A stretch of DNA of 61,128 bases, filler included. It is 3 parts of 3 records of this genome, joined end to end, with 100 filler letters (N's around TTAATTAATTAA, not from the genome) between each part and the next. Parts side by side here need not be neighbours in the genome. Positions count along the whole stretch, not along the records: positions 32,027 to 41,546 come from SRR20825019_1118; 2 more parts are not named here. The stretch is one strand, 5' to 3'. Under the pieces are notes generated by a model. The model did not search any database. It saw nothing but the letters and a program-made list of their open reading frames with translations, and was not told the origin of the DNA. Positions 31,927 through 52,000 of the stretch are shown piece by piece (the first letter of the stretch is position 1; each line of letters opens with the position of its first letter). The position numbers and the translations under genes are program-made.

Positions 31927-32026
31927 NNNNNNNNNNNNNNNNNNNNNNNNNNNNNNNNNNNNNNNNNNNNTTAATTAATTAANNNNNNNNNNNNNNNNNN
32001 NNNNNNNNNNNNNNNNNNNNNNNNNN
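31927..32026. other. Artificial contig spacer
   Basis: N-run, TTAATTAATTAA (stops in all six frames), N-run. Confidence 0.99.
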
Positions 32027-32896: not shown

Positions 32897-32974
32897 AGAA
32901 GGTATAACTAAAACGCATAGCGGCACAAGCACAAGGTATTGGTGCATTCATCCGGCATGCGGTATTCTCTGCTC

Positions 32975-33706
32975 ATGAACTCCAACTCATCAACAACCCG
33001 CACCGTCACGAAGCGTCCCGCCAACGAACGCGGTCAAGCCAACCACGGCTGGCTGCAGGCCCGGTTTACGTTTTCGTTTTCCGAATACTTCGATCCCGAT
33101 CACATGGGCTTCCAATCCCTGCGGGTGATGAACAACGACACGATCCAGCCGGGTGGCGGCTTTCCGAAGCATCCGCATGCCGACATGGAGATTTTTACTT
33201 ATGTGATCGAAGGCCAGCTTGCCCACGAGGACAGCATGGGCAACGGCTCGACGATCGAAGCCGGTGATTTGCAATACATGAGCGCGGGTCGCGGCGTGCA
33301 TCACAGCGAATTCAATCCTTCGTCGGCCAATCCCACCCACCTGTATCAAGTCTGGCTGCAACCGAATGAAAACGGCGGCGAGCCGCGTTATGCCGAAAAG
33401 AAGCTCGGGGAGAGCGCGGCACCCAATGCGCTGACCTTGCTCTTCTCGGGCGATGGTCGCGATGGCTCCACCGCGATCCGGCAAAACGCCGAGATCTCCT
33501 TCGGTCGTCTGGATGCGGGCGCTTCGCTCGAAATCCCCGCTTCAACAGATCGTCCGCACGTGTGGCTGCAGGTCATCTCCGGATCCGTAAACGTGGCGGG
33601 TGAAACGCTCGACACCGCCGATGGCGTCGAGATTAAAAACGATCCCGGCGCGATCCCGGTCGCAGCCACGGCCGACACGAAGTTCCTCCTCTTCCGTCTG
33701 AGCTGA
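32975..33706 (+). CDS. Pirin-family protein (YhhW-like)
   Basis: HGWL...FSFSEYFDP, GFPKHPHADMEI, HEDSMGN, MSAGRGVHHSEFN. Confidence 0.93.
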   Translation: MNSNSSTTRTVTKRPANERGQANHGWLQARFTFSFSEYFDPDHMGFQSLRVMNNDTIQPGGGFPKHPHADMEIFTYVIEGQLAHEDSMGNGSTIEAGDLQYMSAGRGVHHSEFNPSSANPTHLYQVWLQPNENGGEPRYAEKKLGESAAPNALTLLFSGDGRDGSTAIRQNAEISFGRLDAGASLEIPASTDRPHVWLQVISGSVNVAGETLDTADGVEIKNDPGAIPVAATADTKFLLFRLS

Positions 33707-33738
33707 ATGACAAGTCCATGTGGCATGCTCTGGAATAT

Positions 33739-33842
33739 TGGAGGGACCGGCTCCGCCCGGTCCGGACCCATACACAGCTTGAATTTCCCAAACCGGACGA
33801 CGTGAAAGTCGTCCCTCCATTAATAGAGCCGACCCGGCTACA
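33739..33842. repeat. Intergenic REP-like palindrome cluster
   Basis: TGGAGGGACCGG-loop-CCGGTCC and inverted GGACGAC-loop-GTCGTCCCTCCA pair, plus a partial GTAG-type unit on the minus strand. Confidence 0.7.
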
Positions 33843-33877
33843 GAAATCTTATCTCTAAAATCTAACCCACTCATATT

Positions 33878-34267
33878 ATGAAAGAAAAAATCATCGGCGG
33901 CCTGCTTGGCCTTATCTTCTTGGTCTTCGGACTCAACTTCTTCCTGAACTTCCTGCCCAATCCTCCGATGGAGGAAGGCACGCCACCCGCCATGTTTATG
34001 GGCGCGATGTATGTGTCGGGCTACCTGACCTTCGTGAAGGTGCTGGAGATTCTGGGCGGTATCCTGATCGCGATTCCGAAGCTGCGTCGGCTCGGCATGC
34101 TGATCCTCGGACCGATCGTGGTGAACATCCTCGCGACCAATGTGTTCATGATCAAAGGCGGCTGGATGCAGCCTCCCGTGTTCCTGGTCGTCATTTTCTC
34201 CGCGTTTCTCCTGTGGTCAGAACGGAAGTCATTCTGTGCTCTGATTAAGGGCGCGGCGAATGAGTGA
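33878..34267 (+). CDS. DoxX-like membrane protein
   Basis: Four hydrophobic helices; LLGLIFLVFGLNFF, VKVLEILGG, LGPIVVNI. Confidence 0.78.
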   Translation: MKEKIIGGLLGLIFLVFGLNFFLNFLPNPPMEEGTPPAMFMGAMYVSGYLTFVKVLEILGGILIAIPKLRRLGMLILGPIVVNILATNVFMIKGGWMQPPVFLVVIFSAFLLWSERKSFCALIKGAANE

Positions 34268-34291
34268 TAGCGTTTAATCTCTGTTAGTTCG

Positions 34292-34324
34292 GAGCGGTTG
34301 CTGATTCAGTAACCGCTCTTTTTT
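34292..34324 (+). terminator. Rho-independent terminator
   Basis: GAGCGGTTGCTG-ATT-CAGTAACCGCTC hairpin followed by T tract. Confidence 0.85.
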
Positions 34325-34464
34325 CTCACCGCCTCAAACTGGGCCTTTCCGATTGATCTACTCACGCGGAGAACACAGAGGCGCGGAGATTATAGTTTAG
34401 ATAGTGCTTACTCATTCGTTTCTCCCCGTCGCGGTCGTCGCGAGACTACGGATTGGATTTTGAA

Positions 34465-37400
34465 TCAACGAGACGTCTCGCGGCGCTGCCACCAGGTGAG
34501 AACGGTGACGAGAAGGGTCGGCAAAAAGGTGAGGGTGATTGCGGCGGTGAAGAGCAGGCCGAAGAGCACGATTGCGCCGACGCCGCGGTAGAGTTCCGTG
34601 CCGGCGCCGGGGATGAGCACAAGCGGGGCGAGCCCGCAAACTGTCGTGATGGTTGACATCATGATCGGACGCAGGCGCGAAGCCACCGCCTCTTCGACGG
34701 CTTGCACTACCGTGGTGCCGGCGGTCTTAAGATTGGAGATGGTTTCTTCCACGATCAGGATCGGATTGTTCACGACGGTGCCCAACAGAATGAGGAATCC
34801 GAGCATGGTGATCATGTCGAAAGGCTGACTGATCGGGGCGATTCCGATCCAAGGTAACAGTCCTCCAAGGAAGTTGAGCAGCCAGAGGCCGATGATCCCG
34901 CCGGCGATCCCGATCGGCACAGTGATGAGAATAAGGAATGGATAACCCCAGTGGGTGAAGATGACGACAAGCAGGAGGAAACTCAGTAACACGGAGACGA
35001 TGAAATTGCCGCCGAGTGCTTCGCGGGTATCGCTCAACTGATCACTGGCTCCGGAAAGGCTGACGGAAACGGCGGGTGGAATCTCACCCGCGTTGCGCAG
35101 GTGATTCACGACATCCTCGCGCACGATATCGACAGCGGTTTCCAACGCGACGGATCGAGGCGGCACGATATTGAGCGTGACCGTGCGGCGTCCATCCACG
35201 CGACGGATCGCATCGGTATCCACGGTCTCGACGATATCGGCGAGCGCGCTGACGGGTTGCACGCCACCTCGCGGGGTATGCAGTGAGAAATCGCCGATGC
35301 TGCCAATCTGTCGGGCCGCGACGTCGCGATTGTAGAGGAAGATGTCGATCTTGTCGTCATCGAGAAAGAACTCATCGACGTAGGCACCGTCGGTGAGCGC
35401 GGAAACGGCGTAACCGAACTCCTGGGCGCTGAAACCGAGCTCGGCGGCGCGATCCCAACGCGGACGGAGTTCGACGAGCGGTTGACCGAGCACGAGGTTG
35501 GAAGGGGATGAACCGATTTGCGGATTGGTAAATACGGCGTCGGCGCGCCGATAAGCGGCGAGAGCGGTCGTGTAGATCTCGGGTAGATCGGGTCCGCTGA
35601 TGTCGAGATTCACACTGCGGGTGCCGCCGTCGTTACTGGAAATGATCGAACCGCGGGAGGAGAAGGCCCGCATACCGGGATAGGAGCGCAGGTGAGAGGT
35701 GATCACATCCATGAAAGCGTTGATCTGCGCCGGGCTTTGCGTGGTGGCGATGAGCCGCAGCGAGCCCGGTTGGACGATGAGATAGAAGGTCTTGATGGCG
35801 GGCACCTCAGCATTCCCGGAAGCAAAGTCATCGGGATCCGCTCCCACGAAGGGCAGGAATTTCTCTTCAACCTTGGCGGCGATTTCTTCCATGGCCTCGA
35901 GACTGTAACCCGGAGGGGCGATCATCATGGAGAAGGTTTTGGCCTCTTCACCTTCGGGAAGATATTCGGCGGGCGGAGTCAGGAAGGCCAGCGAGGCAGC
36001 GGTGAGCGCAAAGATGCCGGCGATAAACGCGAGGCGACGGCGCGCCGTCGCGATGAGCCAATGGACGGCGGCGATGATGCGGCCCTTGAAAGGCGCGGGC
36101 GCGGGATCGGCGTTAGGATCAGCGAGCGGTTTAAATGCGAGTCGGGCGGTGGCCGCCGGCACGAGGGTGACGGCGATGATCATCGAAAGGATAATCGAAG
36201 AGGCGATGGCGATCGCGATATCCGAGTAGAGTTGCCCTGCTTCTTCCTTCACGAAGAGCACGGGCACGAAAACCAGCACGGTGGTGAGAGTGGACGCGAG
36301 GACGGCGGTCCACACGCGGCGCACCCCGGCAAGAGCGGCTTCAAATCGTCCGAGTCCGCGCCTTCGTTCGATCTCGATGGCTTCGAGCACGACGATCGTG
36401 TTGTCCACGGTCATGCCGATCGCGAAGGCCACCCCGGCGAGGGAGATCACGTTGATCGTGCGTCCAAAGATAAAGAGCCCCAGGAAGGCGGCGATGGTGC
36501 AGATGGGGATGCCGATCAGACCGACGATGGTGACCGGCACGGACCGTAAAAAGAGAAACATCACAATGGCGGCGAGAGCGGCCCCGATCGCGAGATTGGT
36601 CCAGACGTTGGCGATGGAGTCCTCGACGTAAACGACATCGTCGTTGGAAAGCATCATCTTCATGCCGGAGGGTCCGAGTAGCTCGCGGTTGATTTCCTCG
36701 ACGGCTTCGAGCACAGCGGCACGGACTTCGATCACGTTGGCTCCGGTTTCGCGTTTGACCGAGAGACCGATGACCGGAGTGCCGCTGAAAAAGGAATGAC
36801 GGCGGATCTCGGCGTGATGGAGACGGATTTCGGCGACATCCTCGAGACGGACCAGTGCGTCGTCGCGAGAGGCGATGATGAGCTGCCCGAGATCAGCGGG
36901 GCTTTTGAAACGGCCGATGGTGCGAATCAGGTAACGGCGTTTGCCGCTGTCCAGATCGCCGCCGGAGATGTCGCGATTGCGTTCGCGGATGGCGTTGCGA
37001 ACCTGCGTGAGCGTGAGGCCGCGAGCGGCGAGCCGTTCGGGATCGACGAGGATCTGAATCTGACGTTCGGCTCCGCCGCTGACGTTGACCTCGGATACGC
37101 CGGACGCGCGTTCAAGGCGGGTGCGCACGTAGTCATCCACGTAATCGCGCATGACCGTCATATCGAGACGACGTGGATTTTCCGGAAGCGGTAAAACGCG
37201 GAAATGGAGAAACGCGTTGTCCGAGAACGAGCTGGTGAGAAGGCGGGGTTCGTCGACGTTTTCCGGATACGCCGGCACCTGGCTGAGCGCGTTGTTTACC
37301 CTCACGAGAGCATCGTTGATTTCGGTGCCGAAAGGGAATTCGAGTTCGATGCTGGCCTGGCCGGTCGAGGCGGTGGAAACCATGCGGCTGAGATTGGGGA

Positions 37401-37614
37401 TGCCGCGGAGGTATTCCTCCTGTTCGATCACGATTTCTTTTTCGACATCCTGGGGCGTCGCGCCGGGCCACGAGGTTTGCACACTGATCGTGCGCACTTC
37501 GAGATCGGGAATCATCTGCACCGGCACGCGGAATGCCGCGAGGAGTCCGAACAGACAAACGATCAGGATGGTGACCGTGAGGAGAGTGCCGCGGCGGAGA
37601 AGTGCTTCGAGCAT
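34465..37614 (-). CDS. RND efflux transporter permease (AcrB/AcrD/AcrF family)
   Basis: 1049 aa; WPGATPQDVEKEI, GMTVDNTIVVLE, ASTLTTVLVF, SRLRPIMMSTITT. Confidence 0.95.
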   Translation of the reverse strand: MLEALLRRGTLLTVTILIVCLFGLLAAFRVPVQMIPDLEVRTISVQTSWPGATPQDVEKEIVIEQEEYLRGIPNLSRMVSTASTGQASIELEFPFGTEINDALVRVNNALSQVPAYPENVDEPRLLTSSFSDNAFLHFRVLPLPENPRRLDMTVMRDYVDDYVRTRLERASGVSEVNVSGGAERQIQILVDPERLAARGLTLTQVRNAIRERNRDISGGDLDSGKRRYLIRTIGRFKSPADLGQLIIASRDDALVRLEDVAEIRLHHAEIRRHSFFSGTPVIGLSVKRETGANVIEVRAAVLEAVEEINRELLGPSGMKMMLSNDDVVYVEDSIANVWTNLAIGAALAAIVMFLFLRSVPVTIVGLIGIPICTIAAFLGLFIFGRTINVISLAGVAFAIGMTVDNTIVVLEAIEIERRRGLGRFEAALAGVRRVWTAVLASTLTTVLVFVPVLFVKEEAGQLYSDIAIAIASSIILSMIIAVTLVPAATARLAFKPLADPNADPAPAPFKGRIIAAVHWLIATARRRLAFIAGIFALTAASLAFLTPPAEYLPEGEEAKTFSMMIAPPGYSLEAMEEIAAKVEEKFLPFVGADPDDFASGNAEVPAIKTFYLIVQPGSLRLIATTQSPAQINAFMDVITSHLRSYPGMRAFSSRGSIISSNDGGTRSVNLDISGPDLPEIYTTALAAYRRADAVFTNPQIGSSPSNLVLGQPLVELRPRWDRAAELGFSAQEFGYAVSALTDGAYVDEFFLDDDKIDIFLYNRDVAARQIGSIGDFSLHTPRGGVQPVSALADIVETVDTDAIRRVDGRRTVTLNIVPPRSVALETAVDIVREDVVNHLRNAGEIPPAVSVSLSGASDQLSDTREALGGNFIVSVLLSFLLLVVIFTHWGYPFLILITVPIGIAGGIIGLWLLNFLGGLLPWIGIAPISQPFDMITMLGFLILLGTVVNNPILIVEETISNLKTAGTTVVQAVEEAVASRLRPIMMSTITTVCGLAPLVLIPGAGTELYRGVGAIVLFGLLFTAAITLTFLPTLLVTVLTWWQRRETSR

Positions 37615-37635
37615 CGGGATACAGGACTTAAGAGA

Positions 37636-38736
37636 TTAACCCTGAGGTGTGATCGTGGCGGCCTCGGGGCGAACAGCTTGGCCGTCACGGAGCGTTTCAT
37701 TGCCGCGGATAATAATTTGTTGCCCGGCTTCGATACCGGTGCGGATCTCCACGAGATCGGCATAGGATCGCCCGAGATCCACGCGTCGCGGAGTCGCTTT
37801 CCAAGAGTCGCCTTCACGGAGGGCAACCCAGACGTTTACGGTGCCATCGGGGCGGCGCACGAGCGCGTCGCGGGGCACACTGAGAATCGGCCGCGCACTG
37901 CGCAGACCGAAAATGACGCGGGCGGATTTGCCGGGGAGTAGATGGATGGCCGAATCCGTGGGTTCCACCCGGATCAGTGCGGTGCGGGTGCCGGGATTGC
38001 TGACGGGGACTCGGGCGGAAACGCGTCCGCCCAGTCGCGAATCCGGTTGCGCATCGGGTAGGATGGAAACCGGTGTGTCGGCATTGATATCAGCGAAACG
38101 TTCCTGCGGGATCTGCACATCGATGCGGGCGCGATCGACGGAGACGAGTTGGATCGCAGCGTTGCCGGTGGAGACCCATTCGCCGGCGTCGGTGAGCTTT
38201 TGAGTCACCACGCCATCGAAGGGCGCGATGATGACGTGACGGGCGAGGAGCTCGGCGCTTTCCCGGGCTTCGATTTCCAATCGGGCCGCGGCGGCGGAGG
38301 CCATGGCGAGTTCGTTGTCGCGGCTTTTGGCTTCGCTGCTGGAAATCGAATTTTTGGCGAGCAGTTGTTGAGCCTCGTCGCGTCGACGTTCGTTTTCGGC
38401 GAGTTGCACGCGAGCTTCTTTCAGGGCTGCTTGTGCGCGATCGACGGCCAGACCCGCCATGACAGCATCAAGAGAAACGAGTTTATCGCCCTTCTTGACA
38501 TGATCTCCCGCATCGACGTGGACCGTGGCGACGAGTCCGCTCGTGCGAGGAGAGAGAGCGGCCTGTTGACGGGCGGTCACAGTGCCGGTGAGCGAGAGCT
38601 CTTCGACGACCCGATTCAGGCTAGCCTCGGTGGTGACGACCGGCACAGCGTTTTGGGCCCGGAGCGAAGGGGTGGCCATGAGCGCGATCAGGAGGAGGGC
38701 GCAAGGGACGAAGAATGCGGTGCGAAAAGATCTCAT
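37636..38736 (-). CDS. RND efflux periplasmic adaptor (membrane fusion protein)
   Basis: Signal peptide; lipoyl half-motifs SGLVATVHVDAGDHVKKGD and IIAPFDGVV; helical hairpin. Confidence 0.93.
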   Translation of the reverse strand: MRSFRTAFFVPCALLLIALMATPSLRAQNAVPVVTTEASLNRVVEELSLTGTVTARQQAALSPRTSGLVATVHVDAGDHVKKGDKLVSLDAVMAGLAVDRAQAALKEARVQLAENERRRDEAQQLLAKNSISSSEAKSRDNELAMASAAAARLEIEARESAELLARHVIIAPFDGVVTQKLTDAGEWVSTGNAAIQLVSVDRARIDVQIPQERFADINADTPVSILPDAQPDSRLGGRVSARVPVSNPGTRTALIRVEPTDSAIHLLPGKSARVIFGLRSARPILSVPRDALVRRPDGTVNVWVALREGDSWKATPRRVDLGRSYADLVEIRTGIEAGQQIIIRGNETLRDGQAVRPEAATITPQG

Positions 38737-38959
38737 GAAAATTATGGTCGGTCGTTGGTCGTGGGCCTGGAAATTTAATCGAATGGAGAAATGAAGAGGT
38801 TCCTATATAGATAACGGAAAAATAAAATTGGGTCGAGTATAGTCGAAAAATTCGCGACGAAAAGGGAGCTATTGCTTGGCTACCTTTTTAATTTGGACTG
38901 GAGCCCGAATCCGGTGAAAGAATTCCGGATTGGTTTAGCCCGCGGATAAACGCTCGTGA

Positions 38960-39736
38960 TCAGAGCGGCGTGAGCTGGGGGCGTTTGCAGGTGCGGCCGT
39001 CGCCGGCGGATTTTCCCCTGAGGCTCTGCCAAAGCCAGGGGATGCAATGGCGTGCCCACCAGCGTGCTTCGATGGCGCCTTTTTGGACGAGGGTGGGACG
39101 AAGGTCGGTGGGGAAGGGTTGATGCCAGGCATCGTTGGAGTTGGGGAGATCCAGCGCTTGGGCGAGGGCTTCGGCGATGCGGGTGTGACCGGCGGAATTG
39201 GCGTGGATGCGATCTTCGCTCCAAAGGCGCGGGTCCGTTGCGACGGGATACTTCGCAAAATCGACGAGGATTGTTCCGCTCTCGCGGGAGGCGTCGGCGA
39301 GGGCTTGATTCATCGCGGCGATGCGTGGTGCGATCAAACGGGCGAGAGGCATCAACGACGTGAGGTCGGGGAGAGTGAAGGTGAGCACCGTCGCGCCCTG
39401 GTCGACCAAGGCGCGTTGCATCTGCGCGATGTCGGCCGCGACCGATGAGGCATCGAATCGCAGAGCGGTCACATCGTTGGTGCCGCAAAAAAGGGTCGCG
39501 AGATCCGGCTTCATCGCGAGGGCGGCATCAAGTTGCTGGTCGCGCACCTGTCGCGTGGTCAGACCGCGGATCGCGAGATTCGCGTAAAGCAGCGGGGTGT
39601 TCTGCTGAGCGTCGATCCGCTCGGCGAGCCGCTGAGACCAACCGCGATAACCGCCCGCCCCGTCGGGATCGTCGATGCCTTCGGTCGAGCTGTCGCCCAT
39701 CGCGACATAGCGGGCAAAGGTTCGTGAAAGGGGCAT
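38960..39736 (-). CDS. SGNH/GDSL hydrolase
   Basis: YVAMGDSSTEG, NLAIRG, GTND, DRIHANSAGH. Confidence 0.92.
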   Translation of the reverse strand: MPLSRTFARYVAMGDSSTEGIDDPDGAGGYRGWSQRLAERIDAQQNTPLLYANLAIRGLTTRQVRDQQLDAALAMKPDLATLFCGTNDVTALRFDASSVAADIAQMQRALVDQGATVLTFTLPDLTSLMPLARLIAPRIAAMNQALADASRESGTILVDFAKYPVATDPRLWSEDRIHANSAGHTRIAEALAQALDLPNSNDAWHQPFPTDLRPTLVQKGAIEARWWARHCIPWLWQSLRGKSAGDGRTCKRPQLTPL

Positions 39737-39852
39737 CGCGCAAAATGTAGAACGCAAAATCGAGTCTTTGCGATCTCCGCGTGGGATCCGATTTTATCGG
39801 GGTCTCCCAATTGATTGGGATGCTTGGGAGGTCACTTGACTTGAATCATAAA

Positions 39853-39870
39853 ACTAGTCTATAGACTGGT
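39853..39870 (+). promoter_or_regulatory. Palindromic TA autoregulation operator
   Basis: ACTAGTCTATAGACTGGT near-perfect palindrome downstream of TTGACT (39836), just before the antitoxin ATG. Confidence 0.6.
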
Positions 39871-39880
39871 CTAAATAAGT

Positions 39881-40132
39881 ATGAAAACGACTCAAACAGT
39901 AGGTGCTTATCAGGCTAAGACTCATTTGCCCTCTTTGTTGGGACGAGTGTCGCGTGGTCGAGAGGTGCTGATTACTAAAAATGGCAAGCCCGTCGCGCGG
40001 CTGATCCCGGCCGATAAACCCACGGCACCCGATCGCACGGTGTTTGCGCGAATCCGGGCGATGCACGATCGTCTCTCTTTGGGGGAGGGCGTGACGGCCA
40101 AAGATCTTATCAATGAGGGACGTCGCATTTGA
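39881..40132 (+). CDS. Phd/YefM-family antitoxin
   Basis: VGAYQAKTHLPSLLGRV..GREVLITKNGKPVARLIP. Confidence 0.92.
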   Translation: MKTTQTVGAYQAKTHLPSLLGRVSRGREVLITKNGKPVARLIPADKPTAPDRTVFARIRAMHDRLSLGEGVTAKDLINEGRRI

Positions 40133-40548
40133 TGAACCCATTGGTTATCGACGCTTCGACGACGATGGGATTTCTGCTGCGTGATGAGCAGCCGGAATTG
40201 GCGATGAAGGTATTGGCGGCGATTGAACGGGGCAGTCCGGTGCATGTGCCCGCGCACTGGTCAGTCGAGGTGGCAAACGGGTTGCTTATGGCCGAGCGTC
40301 GGCAACGGACTTCACAGGCCGATGCAATGGAGGCGCACGAACTTATTTCGCAGCTGGGCGTCATCATTGATGATCAAACTTCGGAGCGCGCGGGTCGCGA
40401 TTCACTCGCACTGGCCCGACAATATGGACTCACGATTTACGATGCGGCTTATTTGGAGCTGGCGATCAGGATCAAAGCCGAACTGGCGACCAACGACAAA
40501 GCGTTGGCTAAAGCGGCTGCGACTGCGGGCGTGACGGTGTTCGCTTAG
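40132..40548 (+). CDS. vapC: VapC/PIN-domain toxin
   Basis: [36 protein letters not shown] overlap with antitoxin stop. Confidence 0.9.
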
Positions 40549-41546
40549 CCGACCCACTCGCGGGCGTTGCGGAAGAGTTTCATCCACGGGGAATCTTCCC
40601 CCCATTCCGATGGCGCCCAACTCATGCTGGTGGTGCGGAAGACGCGCTCGGGATGCGGCATCATAATCGTCACGCGACCGTCCGTCGTGGTGAGGGCGGT
40701 GATGCCGTGCGGCGAACCGTTCGGGTTGAGTGGGTAGAGCGATGTTCCCTGTTTTGAATCGTTGTCCGCCTTCGCCAAGGCTTCGGCGGACTGCGCAAGC
40801 GCGAGATCTCGCGCTTGCTTGTTGTCCACGTAACGCGCGCTGACGAAGCCGGAGTCGCTGCAGGCTTGCGCGATGGTGGCATCGGCAAACTCGGCGCGAC
40901 CTTCGCCGTGGGCGACGGCGACGGGGATGACGGAACCGGCCATGTCCTTGAAAAGGATACTCGGGCTGGCTTCGATTTTCAGCGAAACGAAACGGGCTTC
41001 GTAGCGGTCGGAATGGTTCTGCACGAAACGCGGCCAGTGATCGGAACCGGGGATGATTTCGTGGAGGTTGCTCAACATTTGACAACCGTTGCAGACGCCA
41101 AAGGCGAAGGTGTCTTCACGGGCAAAGAAGTCGGCGAATTCGGCGCGGGCCTTGGCGTGGAAGAGAATGCTCTTGGCCCAGCCTTCACCAGCTCCGAGCA
41201 CGTCGCCGTAGCTGAAGCCACCGCAGGCCGCGAGGCCACGGAAGTCTTTCAGGGAGACGCGACCCTCGAGGATGTCGGACATGTGCACGTCGATCGCTTC
41301 GAAACCGGCGCGGTCGAACGCGGCGGCCATTTCGACCTGACCGTTGACGCCCTGTTCGCGGAGGATGGCGATTCTCGGAGATGGGAGATCCTCCTTCGCC
41401 GAGGCTTCGGCGGACAAGTCGGAGATGGGCGTTGGGGTATTCTCAGGGTAGGGCGAACCCTCCGGGTGAGCCGTGGCGGTCGGACCGGGGGCAGCGACCC
41501 CGGCTACCGGGGCTGACGGCTCGGCGGGGACGCCTCGCCCTACCTC
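40545..41546 (-). CDS. purL: Phosphoribosylformylglycinamidine synthase (large PurL), C-terminal glutaminase domain; frame open to contig edge
   Basis: [56 protein letters not shown]; no stop codon in frame from 41546. Confidence 0.93.
40761..40827. repeat. In-frame double-palindrome insertion in purL
   Basis: GTCCGCCTTCGCCAAGGCTTCGGCGGAC (40764-40791) plus perfect 24-bp palindrome GCAAGCGCGAGATCTCGCGCTTGC (40795-40818); GTTGTCC direct repeats at 40761 and 40821. Confidence 0.8.
41375..41544. repeat. Composite REP-like elements within purL reading frame
   Basis: TCCTCCTTCGCCGAGGCTTCGGCGGACAAG between 11-bp direct repeats TCGGAGATGGG (41375, 41419); GGTAGGGCGA...TCGCCCTACC inverted pair (41447-41544) with a nested GTAG unit. 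Confidence 0.8.
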
Positions 41547-41646
41547 NNNNNNNNNNNNNNNNNNNNNNNNNNNNNNNNNNNNNNNNNNNNTTAATTAATT
41601 AANNNNNNNNNNNNNNNNNNNNNNNNNNNNNNNNNNNNNNNNNNNN
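41547..41646. other. Artificial contig spacer
   Basis: N-run, TTAATTAATTAA, N-run. Confidence 0.99.
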
Positions 41647-41755
41647 GGGGGGGGGGGGGGGGGGGGGGGGTCCGACTGCTTGTGCGGTGGCGGCAACCAG
41701 ACGCCGTATGGAAGGGCACTGTTGATGGTGAGCGCGGGGCTGACCTTCCATGCAG

Positions 41756-43371
41756 GCATATTGGTTCTTCAGCTCCTTGGCCAACCACGGCGCGTCGGCC
41801 GGGCAGATGATGAAGAAACGCAAACAAATCACGAACAGCGCGGGGATCTTTGAGGGGTTTCGGGCCAAGACGAGCCAGAAGGTCTTCCACTTCAACAAGA
41901 CCGGCATCAACTCATACTACATCTGCAACATGGAGCCCCGGGCAAAACACTTCGACAAAGTGACGTGCGTGGAGTACCTGGCCCCGGGGGATCTGGAGGA
42001 GTTTGCCATGTCGAGGATCAAGACGAACGACGGGATGCTGCAGCGGTTTGTGCTGCCCAAGGGTGGCAAGAACACGCTGATCCGCGTCACTTGGTCGCCG
42101 CGTTTCTTCTATGTGGAGCGGAGGCAGAATAAGCACAGCATATATGAGCAGAGACTGGACATGTACGAGCGGGCAGTGACTTATGAAGGGCGGGAATTCA
42201 ACGCCACCAGTGTCCCGATGAAGGGGTTCGCGCTGAACATGCGATTCCGGACGATATGCGAAAAGATCGCAAAGCACGTGTACCAGACATCGCCGGCACA
42301 CCACAAGATCAAGAGGATGGTGTTGTACTTCAAGATTGACTTTGAGGACAGGATCTGGCTATTGTGGTGCGGGCACCTCAGGGTCTTTGACGAGTTTGTG
42401 GACAAGCTCATGACGGAGGCCCCCATCCCCGAGATCCCTATGACCGTGCCGGAACACATCAACCTGCAGATGAGTGCCAGCGTGAACCACCCGCTGATGC
42501 TCCAGAGGACGTACCAGTGCCCGTCGTGCGAAGACTTTGTGGAGAGTGACCAGATCACGGACATTGCCTACGGAAATATCATCGATTTTTATGCGGCACT
42601 CCGCGGGGTCGACCCCGAGGCGTTCCTCAAGAACACTCGCAACAACAAAGTGCGGCAGCAGGCCGCGGCTGTGATCCAGCGCGCATTCAGAAACTGGCAC
42701 GCCCGCCTGGTGAAGGAGGGCGAGCGGAAGCCGCTGGGCGGGCGGAGGAAGCGGCAGGGGGCGAAGGAGAAGGTCCCTGCAATCATCCAGAACATCCACC
42801 CGCACCTCAACTTTGAGCGCTACGCGTTCCTCAGCAAGAAGCCGGTGTTTAGATACAAGACCATAGGCGTGTGCCCGCGGTGTGCAACCAAGTTCACGGA
42901 CAAGCTGTCGCAGAAGGAGCTGTCGGAAATGATCAACTCGGCCACGGCGCGCCGGGATTCCCAGGTCAAGGTTTCGACGTGAGTGGTGTGGCCCGTGCCC
43001 TGTACGCCATGTGTGTCTGACCGGAGGGTTCGCAGGATGAGTCTGTCTCAGAAAATCATGATGGAGACCACTAGGAAGGGGAGCATGACCGCACTACGCC
43101 AGCTGTACCCGTCGGAGACGGACATTGAAGGTAGCTAACTAGCCGTCCTCGCGGCGCGGTCTGAACTTGGTGTGACTGAAATCTTTTGACAGCGCCTATG
43201 ATCGATTTCTCGAAAACGATGAAGACCCTGGCCGGGATCATGCGGAAAGCGTCGCTGCCTCCCATTAAGCGGCCGGAGAGCGAGACGGCGGACGTGCTCA
43301 ACCGCACCAACTCGTTCCTCGGCGACAGCAGGGCCAACGCCTCGACATTATCACTGCCGGAGATCAAGTGA
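41756..43371 (+). CDS. Eukaryotic uncharacterised protein (5' partial; introns 42979-43035, 43131-43192) with IQ motif and two CxxC pairs
   Basis: Long ORF; splicing the GT-AG introns keeps frame to TGA 43371; AAAVIQRAFRNW IQ motif; CPSC and CPRC. Confidence 0.7.
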
Positions 43372-46044: not shown

Positions 46045-49000
46045 ATGGCTTTGGACTTGCAGCTGCGAAGGCAGTTGAACCTTGCCCTCCAGGAGAAAGA
46101 CGTCAAGACAGTGACGACCATCCATGAAACCATCGCAAAACTGCTGGACAAGACCCCGGCCGGGCTGGAGGTGCCCGTGTCGGAGTCCAAACTAACACCT
46201 GAGATCGTGGTGCTGTGCGCGGAGGTCGCGCTGGAGCTGGGGGTATTTGACATCACAGACGACTGCCTCAACAGATACTTTGTCACTCTGCCGCCGCCGA
46301 GCCAGTTCTACTGCCGGGCGTGCTTCGCTAAGGCGCGCCTGGACAACCGAAACACATACCTGCTGAAGGGGGAGGAAGCTATCAAGGCGACAGAGGAGGC
46401 CCTGAACTGGGTGATCAAGGGACTGGACGTGGCCCTCACGGACGAGCGCTACCAGTTCCTGCAGTACAACGCCAGCGTTGTATACTACAACATCGCGCGG
46501 CAGCTCTTCAGGGATGAGTACAGCCGGCACCTCATCCCGACGATGACCAAGGTCGTGAAGGCGCTGGAGGACATGGACGATACGGACTATGAGTGGCGCA
46601 TCCGCTTCAACACGATGCTGGCGCACTGCCACGACGATAATGGGAAGAGCGACGAGGCTCTCAAGGCGGTGGCCGTTGCCCAAGGTAGGCTGGGTCCCCT
46701 TTTGGGGGGTGTGGCGCCGGTGCTGGCGTTTGTATTGACTCTGGTTGGCAGGGCTGGCGGATAAGTACTGCGAGGCAATGAAGGTGCCGGTGTGGAGGCT
46801 TGCGGTGCACCTCAACCGCAAGAACCCTGGCGCCGTGGGCAAGCTGCTTGGTGATGCCAAGAACAACCCCGACCTCAAGGTCATCGCGCCAATCCAGATG
46901 ACCAAGGTGAGTGGTGGGTGGCGGTGCGGTGTGGGACGGGACTGACGGTGCGGCCGCCCAGTCGGGCATGATCACGGATAAGGCACAGATCGAGAAGGAG
47001 CTGACGGAGGCGCTCAACACGCTGAAGACCAATGGTGGGGCGGATGGTAAGAACATCAATGCCGAGCTGATGGGTGAGCTTGCGCTCGTGGCGGCGGAGT
47101 CTGGGCTGTTGACGATGGCCGATGAGTGCGCGGGGATCGCACGGAAGCTCAAGAACCTCAAGGGCAATGTCCTCGCGGAGTATTCGCAGGCCCTGTCGAT
47201 GGTGGCCGGGCTGGATTGGGAGGCGGATAAATATAGCCGCACGATGGTGGAGACTCGTGTCGGCGCGCTACGAATCGTGGAGAAGGCGCTGACGTCCGCA
47301 ATGCGGCTGGACGACCCGGCGGTCGTTCAGGACGGCTGCGTCATCATCTGGAACATTGCCCTGCCCCTACTCCAGCCGAACCTCCGCGGCCTCGTGCTCA
47401 AGTACTTCCACATGGCTGCGGGTGCCCTGGAGGAGATGGACTCGCTCTTGGCCCACCTGCGGGCCCGGTTCCACCTCGAGCTCACCTTGTGCGAAATGAG
47501 CGCCGACATGCTGTCCAAGGCTGCCAGCCACGCGGAGAAGGCGTTGATTCAGGTGGAGCCGGAGAACGACATCGGTGGCACGGCGCCCAAGGGGCTGCAG
47601 CGATACCTGTACCCGCTCAAGCGCAAACTGACCCTGAAGACCTCTATCTACTCCGAGCCGGACGGCCCGGAGGAGAAGGCGCTGCTGATCGTGGAGCAGG
47701 CGCGCGATGCCAAGGAGGGAAGCCTCCGTGCGACCTTCATCGAGAGGGCCATCAGCACCCTGGAGGGTGCCTCAGAGGGCGGGGAAGACAACACCGCGGA
47801 GACCAACGCCGACCCCGAGAAGAGGACGCCTAAGGAGCGCATGGTGGTGCTGCTGTGGTTCGAGATGGCCAAGCTGTCCTGGCAGAACCAGAACCGCGTC
47901 CTGGCGCGCAAGTGCGCCAAGCAGGTGCTGGAGCAGAAGTGGGACAAGGAGCGAGAACGCGACATAGTGACCGCGCAGGCCCAGGCCCACTTCATCCTGG
48001 CGGAGGTGGCGGTGGTGGAGCTGCTGCGGGAGGACTACGAGCTTTGCCACCCCGAGATCGAGGAGGACGACTGGGCCATCGAGCAGCAGGACCTGGTGCG
48101 CAAGCACTTCATGGAGGGCATGCGCGTGGGCCAGGAGCTTGAGGAGGACTGGATCGTGCAGAACGGCGTGCTGTACATGTGGAACTACCACATCCATGTC
48201 CACAAGCAGCAGCGGCACAGCGAGCTGGTTGAGTACCTCCAGGAGGGCTTTGATGCCATCGTCGACCTTAAAACCGTGGATCCGATCCTCCTCTCCAACG
48301 TGACCTATGCCCTGGCCACCGGCCTGGAGCACCAGTATTACCTCGGCCGCGCGGACAAGGACGGCATCGAGAGAGGGGAGGAGACGACCTACGCTAAACT
48401 CTCGGTTAAGTACGCGGGGCCCGGAGACAAGGCCTCCGCGGAGCTGAACAAGGCCAAGTCGGCCTGCGAGAAGGCGATCGGTGTTATCCCGGACCCGATG
48501 ATGAAGAAGAATGTGCTCAGTACTCTCTCCAAGATCAGTGGGATGCTGGGCGGGGCGACGATAGTGAAGGAGGGCGCCGAGGACATGGTCCTGGGATACA
48601 TCGCGGACATTGAGGGCGCGACGGATAACGACAACCAGAAACGCGACAAGCTCAAGAAGGGAGCGGAGATGCTGACCTCCGGCTCGGTGACGAACCCGGA
48701 GCTGTGGGCCCGCCTGGCAGGGTGCGCGCTCATGATGGAGGAGTATGAGCAGGGAATACAGTTCTGTGAGACCGCCGTCCAGGCCCTCAAGGAGACCAAC
48801 CCCAGCGTGTCCCAGCACAACTGGCGCTGGTTCAGCCTGGCCGAGTGCGTCCACACCCAGATCATCACCAAGTTTATCAAGCCGGGCATGGACAAGCCGG
48901 GCGAGGACCTCGTGCGTCACAAGAGCATCGAGCACGCCGAGCTCGCCGTGATCTACGGCCACCGCGCCCGGTGCGGCACGCTGACTCTGAACGCGGCGCG

Positions 49001-52000
49001 GCACTTCTGGAACGTGGCCATTCCATTCATGGACACCCCCTTCACGCGCAAGACGATCGTCAACTACCTGCGTGTGATCATTGAGAAGCTGTCCGAGGTT
49101 GGTGCCTCGGAGGACTACCAGTTCCTCGCGGACATGTACAAGCTCTACATGGACACCGTGGCGGACGCGCAGGACTGGGCCCTCGGCAACCGCATAGTAA
49201 CCAAGGCCTTTGGTGTTCTACCCAAGGCGTTCCACCGGGTCCTGTGGGAGTCCAAGATCACCTTCCTCTCTAAGATGGGCAAGGACGTCGCCGGCGAGAT
49301 GCTTAAGGTGAAGGAGTACGACCTTGGCCTCCAGGCTCAGATCTGGGTCACCCTCGCACGCAACTCGGAGCGGCCGCTTGACCAGATGAGGGCTTACGAA
49401 ACCATCCTGGCCTTGCTCAAGGAGATGCCGTTTGAGATGATTGAATACCTGATCGAATTTGGCCAGTGGATGCACAGCAACAACTTCCCTCTGGACGACG
49501 CCCTGGACCAGCTGCTGAGCGCCGCCGACATTGTCCTCGACATCGAGTGCGCGGATGAAGAGGCGGAGGCCGACGACGGCAACGACGGTGGAAGCCGCGC
49601 CGGCAGCCGCGCCGGCAGCCGTGCCTCGCGCAAGAGTGGCGGCAGCCGCGCCGGCAGCCGGGCGTCGCGAAGGAGCGGTGGTAGCCGGAGGGGAAGCAGG
49701 GCCGGCAGCAGGGCCGGCAGCCGGAACCGCTCGCGCACGAGCCGCAAGACCGGGGACTCCAAGTCGATCGCGTCCACAAACCAAGACCAGCCCGTGCCGG
49801 AGATGTTCAACGTTCGGCACTTGGAGCAGCTGGGCCGCATCTATCTCAACATCGCCAAGATCGCTCCCACGATGGAGGAGAAGGTGGAGTATCTCCTCCT
49901 GTCCGCACACTACTACGGCCGCATGTGGGCGTGCAGCATCGACCTGATCAATCACAAGGCCCAGAAGGCCCACCACGACCGCGCCCTCGACGCTCACTAC
50001 GACAACCTCCCCTTCGACGAGCCGGCCCCCGAGCTCATCCCGCCCGCGCCCGCCGCTCCCAAGGACTGGATCGGCTTTGTTCCGGATGAAAAGATCATCC
50101 AGCATTTCAGGGACGAGGAAGGCCCCATCGCGATCAACAAGCGCAGCATCACGCAGCCTGTGGTCACATGGCTGACCATGAACGAGCTCATCGAGGAGCT
50201 GTGCGAGGTCGGATATGACATTTACGCCCTCCCGCTGTTCTACATCCTCGACATCATCGCCGCCGATGTCATGGACGACAAGTCCCTGTCCCAGCTCAAC
50301 TCGTACAACATGGCCGCGTTCCTCGACTCGATGGCGCTCACGGACCTCGCCAAGGAGCGGATCGAGCGCGGCGGCGCGGTCCTCATTGACCCGGAAGTCC
50401 GCGGCGTGGTGCGCCAGGCGGTGTCGCGCCGCCTCCATCTCAAGAAGAACGCCGGTGAGGTCAAGCAGAAGACCGCGGACAGCACGGAGCTCGCGCTCCC
50501 GCCGTGGGGGCCCGCCGGAGGAGGCAGGAACAAGTGCTCGGCCTTCAACAATGTCTCGCCGATGGCGTTCAAGGAACACCAGCGGTGGCTGCAGCTGATC
50601 CCTGCCATGATCAAGCACAGGCTCATCGACACGGCCAAGGACCTTGTCGCCGAGTGCAGTGAGTATGCGGAGGCCTTCGAGGACGCGTATGCGGAGGCGT
50701 GGTGTGAGTACTACAAGGCGGAGATCTGCTTCTTCGAGGGGGCCACCGACCAGGCCCTTCGCCACATCCTCACGGCCCAGAAAATGAACGGAGACATGCG
50801 CTTCTGGAGGCGGGTTACGGGCCTTCTGTTCAAGATCTTGATGTATCTCGGCCGCTACCGTGAATGTGTGGTGGCTCTCGGCGGTGCCGCGGCCTGCCTT
50901 GGCCAGTTCCGGGAGGACTACTCTAACGTCGCCCTTGAGACCCGCCTGCTGTTGGCCTCGGTGGACCACGACTACGGCCACGCCCTCCTCGCTCACGCCT
51001 ATGTTCTCAAGTCGCAGGACAAGTTCTACAAGGAGGAGTTCAACCAGGCCATGTCCCTCCTGCGCGGCTGCGTCGATTTCTTCAAGGAGGAACGCGCATA
51101 TAGCCACCTGCTTTCGTACAGCATGGCCCTGGCCCGCGCCGTGGCCACCCAGCCCCACGAGTCGCCGTATCAGCAACGTGAGTTCTGGAACGAGGCGGTG
51201 GAGATCCTCAAGGAGGCTGAGAAGGGCGGCGAGGAACTCCTTTGTGAGGTCAAGCCCGCCGACCTTCCGAGCAACGTCGCCCTCCGCCCCATGCGCAGGC
51301 TGGGCAGGGTGAAGCTCGTGCTTGCGCGCCTGGAGCTGGAGACGGCCACGATGATCGCCGTCAACACCAAGGCCAGCACCCCGCGCCCGCCCCTGCCGCC
51401 ATACCCGCAGGTCGAGGGTGGAGAGCATGCGGTCATTGAGGACTTCCTGAACGAGGAAGACCGCTCCAAGATTCCGCCGCCGACCCAGATGACCTCCACG
51501 GAGCGCGCGCTGGTGTACGCATCCACGGCCAACTCCCTTCTGGTGGATGTAGGCGTCGGGGCCCCCGCAAGGAGCCTCATGGGCGCGTGCCTCCTCCGGA
51601 TGGCCGATATTAGCGAGCAGATGTACAAGCACTGGAGGGAGGTGCCGAATGTGGACGAGCGGGACTGGACGCGCGAGGAGCGCAAGAAGAAGATCGAGGA
51701 GGACCGGATCGCCGCTGAGGCCGCGGCGGAGGCCGAGGCAGCCGCGAACAAGAAGGGCGGCGGCAAGGACAAGGGCGGCAAGAAGGGAAAGAACGACAAG
51801 GAGCCCGAACCCGAGCCCGAGCCTGAGCCTGAGCCTGTGGATCTGGAGCCGGAGTATGTGCCACCACCGCCCCCCGTGGACTACCTGCAGGAAGCCACGC
51901 AGGTTCTGCAAGAGTCGCTTGACGCGGCCCTCGCACAGAGCGACATGGCCGCCGCGGCCGACTCGGCTTTCCATCTGGCCATGGCGTGCGGCAACGTCGA

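What the first reader, a model, noticed from the sequence alone, without database searches (positions are those of the whole stretch)
40761..40827. 60-bp palindromic DNA element inserted in frame into the PurL glutaminase domain
Seen: between RYVDN and YPLNPNGS the protein reads [28 protein letters not shown]. The DNA here is two adjacent hairpins, a perfect 24-bp palindrome and GTCCGCC-N14-GGCGGAC, bounded by GTTGTCC direct repeats exactly 60 bp apart. Removing one repeat plus the interval leaves [21 protein letters not shown]. Knowledge: large PurL proteins have only a short loop here (as I recall, E. coli reads [20 protein letters not shown]). Rickettsia palindromic elements are the precedent for repeats spreading inside coding regions. 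Inference: a small mobile palindrome family colonises housekeeping genes without breaking them, adding peptide segments, possibly via target-site duplication.
Basis: partly seen in the sequence, partly recalled or inferred. Interest (0 to 1): 0.78.

Follow-up and report, generated by a model that had tools for sequence, protein, structure and literature searches.

The report
Translated REP-type hairpin cassette in purL
A purine-synthesis gene of an Opitutaceae bacterium carries, in a surface loop, an in-frame piece of palindromic DNA partly derived from a repeat that is scattered through verrucomicrobial genomes; this kind of insertion is already known, but this one behaves as an old cassette passed between gene copies and not as a fresh transposon hop.

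Summary
The purL glutaminase domain (minus strand) has 25 residues where solved PurL has 4, encoded by a perfect 24-bp palindrome plus a 7-bp-stem hairpin, with GTTGTCC repeats 60 bp apart. Contigs of two studies and a sister genome carry the same insert.

Hairpin 2 belongs to a dispersed repeat: 15 copies in the closest genome, and hits in 147 of 301 family and 81 of 251 phylum genomes. It lies between genes and in frame, always read SAEA.AKA, in other housekeeping genes and again in this gene's linker. Intragenic REPs are already described for Opitutus terrae (Di Nocera 2013), and this scan has noted them in Verrucomicrobia several times, though not at purL.

Three parts fail. Palindrome 1 is single-copy and purL-specific. 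The direct repeat is not a target duplication: excision does not restore the sister's loop, and the repeat is imperfect in the sister genome. The insert is not recent: 47 of 121 related PurLs carry variants at the same site.

These variants are scattered over the PurL tree (monophyly rejected, p=5e-10). A roughly 146-nt mosaic tract suggests the cassette arrived by short-patch recombination. AlphaFold2 predicts a confident helical hairpin. No Y1-transposase link was found.

The parts
40545..41546 (-). 3' part of purL (large FGAM synthetase): inter-domain linker plus the complete glutaminase domain. The stop codon is at 40545-40547. The gene is cut by the contig end at 41546.
   Evidence: ORF and translation. 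The closest proteins carry the PurL Pfam domains. Solved Salmonella PurL chains match at E 1e-107. The AF2 model matches them with TM 0.88 and rmsd 1.8 A. The residues Cys (GVCNGCQ) and His/Glu (PHPE) are invariant in alignment A3.
40746..40820 (-). Loop cassette: 25 codons ([25 protein letters not shown]) between the conserved N of RYVDN and the T before YPLNPNGS. Solved PurL has 4 residues here.
   Evidence: Predicted as two helices (model residues 189-197 and 201-211) with block pLDDT 90-96.
40795..40818 (.). Palindrome 1: a perfect 24-bp palindrome encoding QARDLALA. It is purL-specific. Other lineages carry an 18-bp form, GCAAGCGC-tc-GCGCTTGC, encoding KQALALAQ.
   Evidence: (I6). Single-copy and only at purL in the genomes searched. 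In six lineages 7 of 8 of its codons are identical, against 44 of 139 invariant-residue codons elsewhere, P=0.0018.
40764..40791 (.). Hairpin 2: GTCCGCC-N14-GGCGGAC, encoding SAEALAKAD. It is one unit of a REP-like repeat family found across the Verrucomicrobiota.
   Evidence: Four exact 27-nt matches, including this purL site, and 15 matches at up to 3 mismatches in G207. Hits in 147 of 301 family genomes and 81 of 251 phylum genomes, with reversed-pattern controls of 1 and 2 hits.
40761..40767 (.). Direct repeat GTTGTCC, copy 1. It overlaps the arm of hairpin 2 and the following Asn codon.
   Evidence: Judged coincidental and not a target duplication.
40821..40827 (.). Direct repeat GTTGTCC, copy 2. 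These are the conserved Val-Asp-Asn codons of RYVDN.
   Evidence: G207 has GATAAC here, 6 of 7.
41389..41415 (.). Second copy of the hairpin-2 repeat (25 of 27 identical), in the purL inter-domain linker. It lies 624 nt (208 codons) upstream in the same codon phase and reads [16 protein letters not shown]. Its flanks (about 41369-41438) match the roughly 50-nt coding subfamily of G207.
   Evidence: (D1). Absent from the linker of G207/P0001.
41447..41544 (.). GTAG-tagged inverted repeat (GGTAGGGCGA...TCGCCCTACC) translated inside the linker as [10 protein letters not shown]...HPEGSPYPE. It is of the same kind as the outer arms that enclose hairpin 2 in genome G132.
   Evidence: (I5). G132 copies L149, L151, L154 and L155, plus L150 with a GGCAGGGCG variant. 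P0004 has it and P0001 lacks it.
40737..40882 (-). Inferred short recombination tract around the cassette. Here the window resembles a cassette-bearing purL (G249) more than its whole-gene sister (G133).
   Evidence: Informative sites are 16 donor-like to 3 sister-like inside the tract, against 31 to 94 outside. Max-chi-square permutation p is about 0.002-0.003. The test is not significant with G036 as the donor proxy (p 0.21).

Best explanation
The 60 bp is not a discrete transposon. It is the core of an old, in-frame, two-hairpin cassette that occupies a permissive surface loop of the PurL glutaminase domain in part of the Opitutaceae.

Composition.
- The downstream hairpin (SAEALAKAD) is a translated unit of a REP-like repeat family. 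The family is dispersed through verrucomicrobial genomes, between genes and in frame in loops, linkers and N-termini of other housekeeping genes.
- The upstream palindrome (KQA..LALAQ) exists only at this purL site.
- Together they replace 4 loop residues by 25, predicted to fold as a protruding helical hairpin that leaves the enzyme core unchanged.

Inferred history.
1. A REP-type hairpin entered the loop of an ancestral purL.
2. The cassette diversified locally: loop-length changes, a one-base frame switch to the RRSxGEGG reading, tandem duplication, and a six-base longer palindrome centre (two extra codons).
3. It moved among purL alleles by short-patch homologous recombination. That is how the window's lineage got it, since its nearest relatives keep the ancestral short loop.

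What is shown: the anatomy, repeat-family membership, same-site variants, non-monophyly and a mosaic tract. What is inferred: the original insertion mechanism, the direction of transfers, and neutrality or benefit to the enzyme.
For: Repeat family.
- Hairpin 2 has 15 matches at up to 3 mismatches in G207, 4 of them exact over 27 nt, against 0 for the reversed pattern.
- A degenerate pattern hits 147 of 301 family genomes, up to 46 per genome, and 81 of 251 phylum genomes.
- In G132 and G100 the hairpin sits between GTAG-tagged arms.

In-frame copies.
- Of the 15 G207 copies, 5 lie in long open frames, all in the phase that reads SAEA.AKA.
- Pfam supports three G207 hosts (an AMP-binding enzyme, an EF-Tu-type GTPase and GcvP) and a helicase host in G100.

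Same DNA, other frame.
- Other PurL loops read SRRSPxxEGG or RRSLGEGG from the same repeat shifted by one base.

Palindrome 1 is purL-only.

Age and spread.
- 47 of 121 loops carry an insert.
- The full-length tree needs 17 parsimony changes. P0001 is nested in a short-loop clade with supports 1.0, 0.997 and 0.986.
- The AU test rejects one clade for the insert (delta lnL 1492, p 5e-10).

Not produced by deletion.
- All 74 short loops are 7 aa of the type HHxxTEx, which a deletion within the cassette cannot produce.

Mosaic tract.
- Window 40882..40737 is donor-like 16:3 against 31:94 elsewhere, p about 0.002-0.003. The same holds for G207.

Structure.
- The AF2 model has mean pLDDT 88.8, and the insert forms two helices with pLDDT 90-96.

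The sequence is real.

Precedent.
- Intragenic GTAG REPs are most numerous in O. terrae (PMC3733652, passages read).
Against: - No whole genome of the source organism is held. Copy numbers come from relatives, and the window itself has only 2 copies.
- The mosaic test is significant for one donor proxy (G249) and not for another (G036, p 0.21). Two tests with a poorer sister were weak (p 0.05 and 0.25). The interval was found by scanning, although the permutation accounts for that.
- The AU subset of 35 sequences was chosen after the tree had been seen.
- The 120 database proteins were ranked with a query that contains the insert, so 47 of 121 overstates its frequency. In the family sample only 16 of 284 genomes with a match aligned straight through the loop.
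- The window's hairpin lacks a GTAG tag (it has GAAG), and no transposase link was found (1 of 26 loci). 'REP' is therefore a resemblance in behaviour, not a proven mechanism.
- The QALALAQ 21-mer also occurs in 8 unrelated coding contexts among 17 metagenome hits. Palindrome 1 could therefore be ordinary helix-coding sequence and not repeat-derived.
- High pLDDT for Ala/Leu-rich helices does not show function.
Confidence: 0.62

Rival explanations
1. One reading: a 60-bp mobile palindromic element recently transposed into purL and duplicated a 7-bp target (GTTGTCC). The same element colonises other genes.
For: The 7-bp direct repeats lie exactly 60 bp apart. One half, hairpin 2, is multi-copy and occurs in frame in other genes. 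The linker of the same gene gained or lost repeat copies between 94%-identical proteins.
Against: - Palindrome 1 has no other genomic copy.
- The repeat is 6 of 7 in G207 and absent in other insert classes.
- Excision leaves an 8-aa loop unrelated to the sister's HHNVTDT.
- Other copies of hairpin 2 have different flanks and no GTTGTCC.
- The insert is shared by PurLs that are only 76-81% identical.
Confidence: 0.05
2. The insert is an ordinary lineage-specific protein loop extension, a helical hairpin selected for a PurL function. Its DNA palindromy is a by-product of Ala/Leu-rich coding in GC-rich DNA, and it is not repeat-derived.
For: AF2 predicts two confident helices. The QALALAQ 21-mer recurs in unrelated genes. 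The loop is kept in many lineages.
Against: - Hairpin 2 is identical over 27 nt to intergenic and other-gene copies.
- Related PurLs read the same DNA in another frame as RRSxGEGG, which is homology at the DNA level and not the protein level.
- Tandem duplications of the DNA unit occur in P0060, P0117 and L161.
- The rare codons CAA and CTT that make the palindrome are conserved.
Confidence: 0.1
3. The two hairpins are kept because they act as nucleic-acid structure inside purL. They could be an mRNA element that pauses translation between folding units or modulates decay, or a DNA site. The peptide would then be a passenger.
For: - Synonymous sites of palindrome 1 are conserved beyond the background: 7 of 8 codons against 44 of 139, P=0.0018.
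- Three different perfectly paired 7-bp stems occur in purL loops: GTCCGCC/GGCGGAC, GTCAGCC/GGCTGAC and GTCCTCC/GGAGGAC.
- The fold has z = -2.87.
Against: - The stems are degraded in many lineages (L082, L084, L085, L086).
- The palindrome centre is imperfect in G207.
- Excess identity could equally reflect recent spread by recombination.
- The stem variants also exist in the genome-wide family.
- There are no expression or structure-probing data.
Confidence: 0.15
4. The palindrome or insert is an assembly or chimera artefact.
For: Perfect palindromes can arise as amplification or assembly artefacts. The window is a concatenation of contigs.
Against: Contigs from four runs in two studies are identical across the site. 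An independently assembled genome (G207) has the same 28-aa loop at 97% nt identity in that part.
Confidence: 0.01

Closest known systems
Intragenic GTAG-type REPs of Opitutus terrae and other bacteria (Di Nocera, De Gregorio & Rocco 2013, BMC Genomics 14:522, PMC3733652; passages read)
   Same: - Same bacterial family.
- Short hairpin repeats, mostly between genes, with some lying entirely inside ORFs of known proteins and read through in frame.
- Single units, dimers and clusters that add about 10-30 aa.
- Some genes are hit at two sites, as purL is here.
- In G132 and G100, hairpin 2 is enclosed by GTAG-tagged arms.
   Different: - The window's hairpin has no terminal GTAG.
- I could not match it to families GTAG-17 to GTAG-20, because the consensus sequences are in a figure that is not held.
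- purL is not mentioned in the main text, and Additional file 3, which lists the target ORFs, could not be read.
- The paper does not describe a single-copy partner palindrome, same-site variants discordant with the gene tree, or transfer by recombination.
Rickettsia palindromic elements (RPE; Ogata et al. 2000, 2002; known to me from recall and as mentioned in PMC3733652)
   Same: Palindromic repeats inserted in frame in housekeeping genes and tolerated on protein surfaces. They show a strong bias for one reading frame; here 6 of 6 Pfam-supported or purL copies read SAEA.AKA.
   Different: - A different phylum and unrelated sequence families.
- RPEs are longer.
- No sequence membership was tested or is claimed.
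- The purL cassette contains a non-repeated half.
REPIN/RAYT systems (REP doublets mobilised by Y1 HUH transposases; recalled, and summarised in PMC3733652)
   Same: Hairpin repeats, in some genomes embedded between inverted GTAG arms. RAYT-size Y1_Tnp genes exist in these genomes and are flanked by REPs.
   Different: - Those RAYT genes are flanked by other repeat families. Hairpin 2 was near only 1 of 26 Y1_Tnp loci.
- G100 has 30 hairpin-2 copies and no PF01797 match.
- The motif is conserved across a phylum, which is wider than usual for a RAYT-specific REP.
Short-patch gene conversion and mosaic alleles of housekeeping genes (general knowledge)
   Same: A tract of about 146 nt around the cassette has a different nearest relative than the rest of the domain.
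   Different: What is carried is a repeat-derived insertion and not point differences. The donor and recipient genes are only about 78% identical.

Membership tests
REP / REPIN-type dispersed palindromic repeats (GTAG/CGTC superfamilies of Di Nocera 2013) | Short (20-40 bp) imperfect palindrome able to form a stem-loop | tested here: met
   Hairpin 2 is 28 nt with a 7-bp stem. It appears in the MFE and centroid DNA folds.
REP / REPIN-type dispersed palindromic repeats (GTAG/CGTC superfamilies of Di Nocera 2013) | Many dispersed copies per genome, mostly extragenic | tested here: met
   Met in relatives, not in the source genome, which is not held. G207 has 15 copies, 10 of them outside open frames of at least 120 aa or in doubtful ones. 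Up to 46 copies per genome, in 147 of 301 genomes. Palindrome 1 fails this feature because it is single-copy.
REP / REPIN-type dispersed palindromic repeats (GTAG/CGTC superfamilies of Di Nocera 2013) | GTAG or CGTC tetranucleotide tag at one end | tested here: inconclusive
   The window's copies have GAAG where the commonest phylum variant has an internal GTAG (..CCGTAGCC..). GTAG-tagged arms enclose the hairpin in G132 and G100. Class-B purL inserts end in ..ATCTAC. The window's loop copy has no terminal tag.
REP / REPIN-type dispersed palindromic repeats (GTAG/CGTC superfamilies of Di Nocera 2013) | Association with a RAYT (Y1 HUH transposase gene flanked by the repeat) | tested here: not met
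   PF01797 genes are present, but hairpin 2 lay within the fetched flanks of 1 of 26 loci. RAYT-size genes are flanked by other repeats.
Transposon or MITE inserted with a target-site duplication | Direct repeats that are a duplicated target, so that excision restores the empty site | tested here: not met
   Excision gives DSKQGTSL, against HHNVTDT in the sister. The repeat is 6 of 7 in G207 and absent in other classes. Other copies have unrelated flanks.
Rickettsia palindromic elements | Membership of the RPE sequence families of Rickettsia | not tested
   No RPE sequence was compared. Only the behaviour is alike: in frame, palindromic and frame-biased.
Large PurL (FGAM synthetase), glutaminase domain (class I amidotransferase) | Sequence and fold match to solved PurL, with invariant residues Cys (GVCNGCQ), His and Glu (PHPE) | tested here: met
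   E 1e-107 to Salmonella PurL chains. Foldseek TM 0.88 and rmsd 1.8 A. C99, H245 and E247 are invariant in 59 sequences. That these are the catalytic triad is recalled and was not tested.
Known RNA families (Rfam 15) | Match to a curated covariance model | tested here: not met
   No family matched at the repeat in 15 G207 loci at E up to 1. The only real match was a tRNA near L119.

The most novel reading that the evidence does not exclude
The purL loop is a fixed 'slot' holding a REP-derived mini-cassette that propagates between purL alleles of different Opitutaceae lineages by short-patch gene conversion. This would be homing-like spread without any encoded enzyme.

On this reading its DNA palindromes are kept by selection or by hairpin-templated repair, and its peptide has been co-opted as a folded helical hairpin on the enzyme surface. 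That would be a route by which selfish hairpin DNA becomes a heritable, exchangeable protein module.
Probability: 0.2. Interest if true: 0.65.

Novelty: new member of a known kind. Interest (0 to 1): 0.42.

Why it matters
In-frame REP-type repeats show how non-coding selfish DNA can become protein sequence. That part is already documented for Opitutus and Rickettsia, and this scan has met it repeatedly in Verrucomicrobia.

This case adds three testable points.
1. One essential enzyme loop holds a family of related cassettes whose distribution contradicts the gene tree. There is a small mosaic tract around it, so such inserts may spread by recombination between alleles as well as by transposition.
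2. The insert is predicted to be a well-ordered helical hairpin and not a floppy loop.
3. The hairpin motif is conserved in sequence across a phylum with no visible Y1-transposase partner. That leaves open what copies or maintains it.

For annotation, it warns that unusual PurL lengths (1296-1599 aa among the 120 database proteins, up to a 1674-aa open frame) reflect repeat content and not new domains.

Tried and rejected
- **Rfam.** No family matched at the repeat.
- **RAYT association.** 26 Y1_Tnp loci in 8 genomes were examined and 1 has hairpin 2 nearby. GTAGGGCR words occur near a few of them, which is inconclusive.
- **Palindrome 1 as a dispersed repeat.** Rejected. Its exact 21-mer in metagenomes gave 9 purL and 8 unrelated coding hits.
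- **11-bp direct repeat CCCATCTCCGA around the linker copy as a target duplication.** Rejected. It is 44 nt apart, which is not a multiple of 3, and both flanks are part of the roughly 50-nt repeat unit shared with G207 copies.
- **Long recombination tract.** Not seen in 60-nt identity windows. Only the informative-site test showed a short one.
- **Literature by motif words.** One irrelevant primer hit. The search 'GTAG CGTC palindromic Opitutus' found nothing because the paper writes 'O. terrae'.
- **Earlier scan notes by sequence.** None.
- **L041.** Its long purL match is a duplicated 3' end after the stop, unrelated to the loop.
- **Other contigs of run X20.** They match the linker repeats (records 17-19). 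This hints at more copies in the sample, but the organism is not assignable.
Full report
**Setting**

The window is three contigs joined by N44-TTAATTAATTAA-N44 spacers, with N runs at 31927-32026 and 41547-41646. The finding lies in the middle contig, 32027-41546. Pfam assigns these genes on it:
- a LysR regulator,
- an AcrB/HlyD-type efflux pair,
- a GDSL lipase,
- a Phd/PIN toxin-antitoxin pair.

On the minus strand lies the last 333 codons of a large purL, 40545-41546, cut by the contig end. No whole genome is held for the window. The nearest genomes and proteins are labelled Opitutaceae. The closest is genome handle G207. Its purL, protein P0001 on a 125,493-nt contig, is 93-94% identical in protein and 88.7% in DNA over the glutaminase domain.

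- GTTGTCC lies at 40761-40767 and 40821-40827.
- A perfect 24-bp palindrome lies at 40795-40818.
- GTCCGCC-N14-GGCGGAC lies at 40764-40791.
- The palindrome is the longest in the window. None of 100 shuffles reached its 12-nt arm.
- The stretch folds as single-stranded DNA into exactly these two hairpins, z = -2.87.
- Nine homologues lack 21 columns.
- In solved Salmonella PurL only 4 residues lie where the window has 25, K190 to G214 of the model, window 40820-40746.
- Contigs of four public runs from two studies are identical across the site, and G207 encodes the same 28-residue loop. It is not an artefact.

**What the two halves are**

Hairpin 2 is a member of a dispersed repeat.
- A 27-nt pattern at up to 3 mismatches hits G207 15 times, 4 of them exact. 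It hits G249 6 times, G036 3 times and G061 0 times, with 0 hits for the reversed pattern.
- A 25-nt degenerate pattern at up to 1 mismatch hits 147 of 301 sampled genomes of the family, up to 46 per genome, with 1 control hit.
- The same pattern hits 81 of 251 sampled genomes of the phylum, with 2 control hits.
- No Rfam family matches it.
- In G132 the hairpin is the centre of a larger element with inverted GTAG-tagged arms (GGTAGGGCGAGG...GGTTCGCCCTACC). In G100 it abuts ..GTCCGCGCCCTAC.
- The window's own purL linker contains such a GTAG inverted repeat at 41447-41544. It also contains a second hairpin-2 copy at 41389-41415, 25 of 27 identical, 208 codons upstream in the same phase.

Palindrome 1 is not a repeat.
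- Its core pattern and a 29-nt version with flanks occur once per genome, and only inside purL. The 29-nt version was found in 6 of 301 genomes.
- Its exact 21-mer in JGI metagenomes gave 17 contigs: 9 purL loops and 8 unrelated coding contexts not flanked by hairpin 2.

**In-frame copies elsewhere**
- Of the 15 G207 copies, 5 lie in long open frames, all in the phase reading (L)SAEA[SL]AKA[DE].
- Pfam supports the hosts: an AMP-binding enzyme (between its two domains), an EF-Tu-type GTPase of CysN kind (N-terminal extension), glycine-cleavage P protein (after its first half), and purL. A fifth host has only sub-threshold HTH hits.
- In G100 one copy lies between the DEAD and Helicase_C domains of a helicase, in the same phase. 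One lies at the start of a methyltransferase ORF, and one long ORF had no Pfam hit and is probably spurious.
- All six frames of the unit are open, as the six readings show, so this phase bias is not forced by stop codons.
- Four G207 copies and the window's linker copy share about 50 nt..CTCCGACTT-hairpin-TCTCCCATCTCC...
- The linker differs between close relatives. The window has both repeats, P0004 has only the GTAG one, and G207/P0001 has neither. Repeats therefore come and go in this gene on a short time scale.

**The loop cassette is old and variable**
- Among the 120 best database PurLs plus the window, 74 have a 7-residue loop of the type HHxxTEx and 47 have 21-60 residues.
- This share is inflated by a query that contains the insert. 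In the family sample only 16 of 284 genomes with a match aligned straight through the loop.
- Inserts start K/H/Q/R-Q-A-L-A-L-A-Q-S and end ..(P)IYTEQ or ..GTEx.
- At the DNA level most keep GCAAGCGC-tc-GCGCTTGC followed by a hairpin-2 derivative.
  - GTCCTCC-N17-GGAGGAC occurs in L092, L163 and L164.
  - GTCAGCC-N14-GGCTGAC occurs in L083.
  - A one-base-shifted form reads SRRSPxxEGG or RRSLGEGG (L086, L090, L159; P0024, P0037, P0061).
- Tandem duplications of the unit occur in P0060, P0117 and L161.
- The window's class has a palindrome centre six bases longer (two extra codons, R-D). In G207 two synonymous differences spoil the centre.
- In six lineages that are 76-82% identical in DNA, 7 of 8 palindrome codons are identical, including the rare CAA and CTT, against 44 of 139 invariant-residue codons elsewhere (P=0.0018).

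**Not a target duplication**
- Removing 60 bp gives DSKQGTSL, not the HHNVTDT of the nearest short-loop relatives.
- The first repeat is the conserved Val-Asp-Asn codons, and half of the second is the hairpin's arm.
- G207 has 6 of 7, and other classes have no repeat.

**Distribution against the gene tree**
- On a 249-column domain tree, presence or absence needs 22 changes.
- On a 97-sequence, 1283-column full-length FastTree it needs 17.
- P0001 is nested as (P0012 short, (P0001 insert, (P0004, P0005, P0006 short))) with supports 1.0, 0.997 and 0.986. Several other insert/short sister pairs have support of at least 0.99.
- For 35 sequences, chosen after seeing that tree, the AU test rejects one clade for the 16 insert-bearers (delta lnL 1492, p 5e-10).
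- Short loops cannot arise from the cassette by deletion, because they keep the ancestral HH. The pattern therefore needs exchange of loop alleles.
- The window is 84.2% identical to the short-loop sister (G133, L108) and 77.9% to a cassette-bearing purL (G249, L082).
- At sites where those two differ, a tract at window 40882..40737 is G249-like 16:3, against 31:94 elsewhere (permutation p 0.002-0.003). G207 gives the same result.
- With G036 as the donor proxy the test is not significant (p 0.21). With a more distant 'sister' it is weak (p 0.05 and 0.25).
- I read this as moderate support for acquisition by short-patch homologous recombination.

**Protein level**

AlphaFold2 on a 59-row alignment gives mean pLDDT 88.8 and pTM 0.88. 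The insert forms two helices, 189-197 and 201-211, at block pLDDT 90-96. The rest superposes on solved PurL with TM 0.88 and rmsd 1.8 A. Each DNA hairpin thus encodes one helix of a protruding helical hairpin. No function is shown.

**Mobilising enzyme**
- PF01797 (Y1_Tnp) genes exist in 8 of the 9 genomes tried.
- Hairpin 2 lay in the fetched flanks of 1 of 26 loci.
- RAYT-size genes are flanked by other repeats.
- G100 has 30 hairpin copies and no PF01797 match.

**Known or new**

Di Nocera, De Gregorio and Rocco 2013 (PMC3733652; abstract and passages read) define GTAG and CGTC REPs. They report REPs wholly inside ORFs, with the most intragenic GTAG units in O. terrae, dimers and clusters encoding 20-30 aa, and genes hit twice. 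purL is not in the main text. The consensus figure and the supplementary list of target genes could not be seen and may bear on whether this family and this gene were already listed.

Word searches for the motif found nothing relevant. A search on REP, Verrucomicrobia and intragenic returned that same paper as the only relevant one.

Earlier notes of this scan report in-frame REPs in several verrucomicrobial genes, but no look-alike of this stretch.

**Verdict**

This is a new member of a known kind. Two features are not described in what I could read: a single-copy partner palindrome, and a cassette distribution that points to exchange between alleles.

Noticed in passing
window 31927-32026 and 41547-41646: The window is a concatenation of three contigs joined by N44-TTAATTAATTAA-N44 spacers. 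The third contig starts with a G run of about 24 bases at 41647 and carries long ORFs without Pfam hits (41750-42982, and 46911-53618 at 2235 aa), so it may come from a different organism than the Opitutaceae-like middle contig.
   Followed up: partly
window 41447-41544: A GTAG-tagged inverted repeat (GGTAGGGCGA...TCGCCCTACC) is translated inside the purL linker as [10 protein letters not shown]...[10 protein letters not shown]0004 has a shorter version and G207/P0001 has none. The PurL lengths of 1296-1674 aa in this family seem to be driven by such repeat content.
   Followed up: partly
window 41375-41385 and 41419-41429: An 11-bp perfect direct repeat, CCCATCTCCGA, flanks the linker copy of hairpin 2 and is 44 nt apart. 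It looks like a target duplication, but both flanks belong to the roughly 50-nt repeat unit shared with G207 copies.
   Followed up: yes
window 39881-40548 versus G207:C14:92047-92714: The Phd/PIN toxin-antitoxin pair sits between the GDSL lipase gene and the purL stop in the window. In G207 it lies beyond the lipase gene, so the module has moved between close relatives.
   Followed up: no
P0060, P0117, L161:about 840-990: Some PurL loops hold tandem duplications of the unit (QALAQ-SRRSPxGEGG repeated two or three times, giving loops of up to 60 aa). The cassette therefore also grows by local duplication.
   Followed up: partly
G207 loci L120 and L125 (motif at 501-527): Intergenic copies of hairpin 2 are enclosed by GGCGGGG.../...ACCCCGCC stems and followed by a T run, which makes them look like intrinsic terminators.
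   Followed up: no
G486 locus L174; G242 locus L175; G027 locus L173: RAYT-size Y1 transposase genes are flanked by arrays of other REP families (for example GGGTAGCGCGATGC..CAACCCTGG in L174). This is a classical RAYT-REP arrangement, distinct from the hairpin-2 family.
   Followed up: partly
L041:947-2031: In a gammaproteobacterial MAG the purL 3' end is followed, about 300 nt after the stop, by a duplicated fragment of its last roughly 20 codons.
   Followed up: partly
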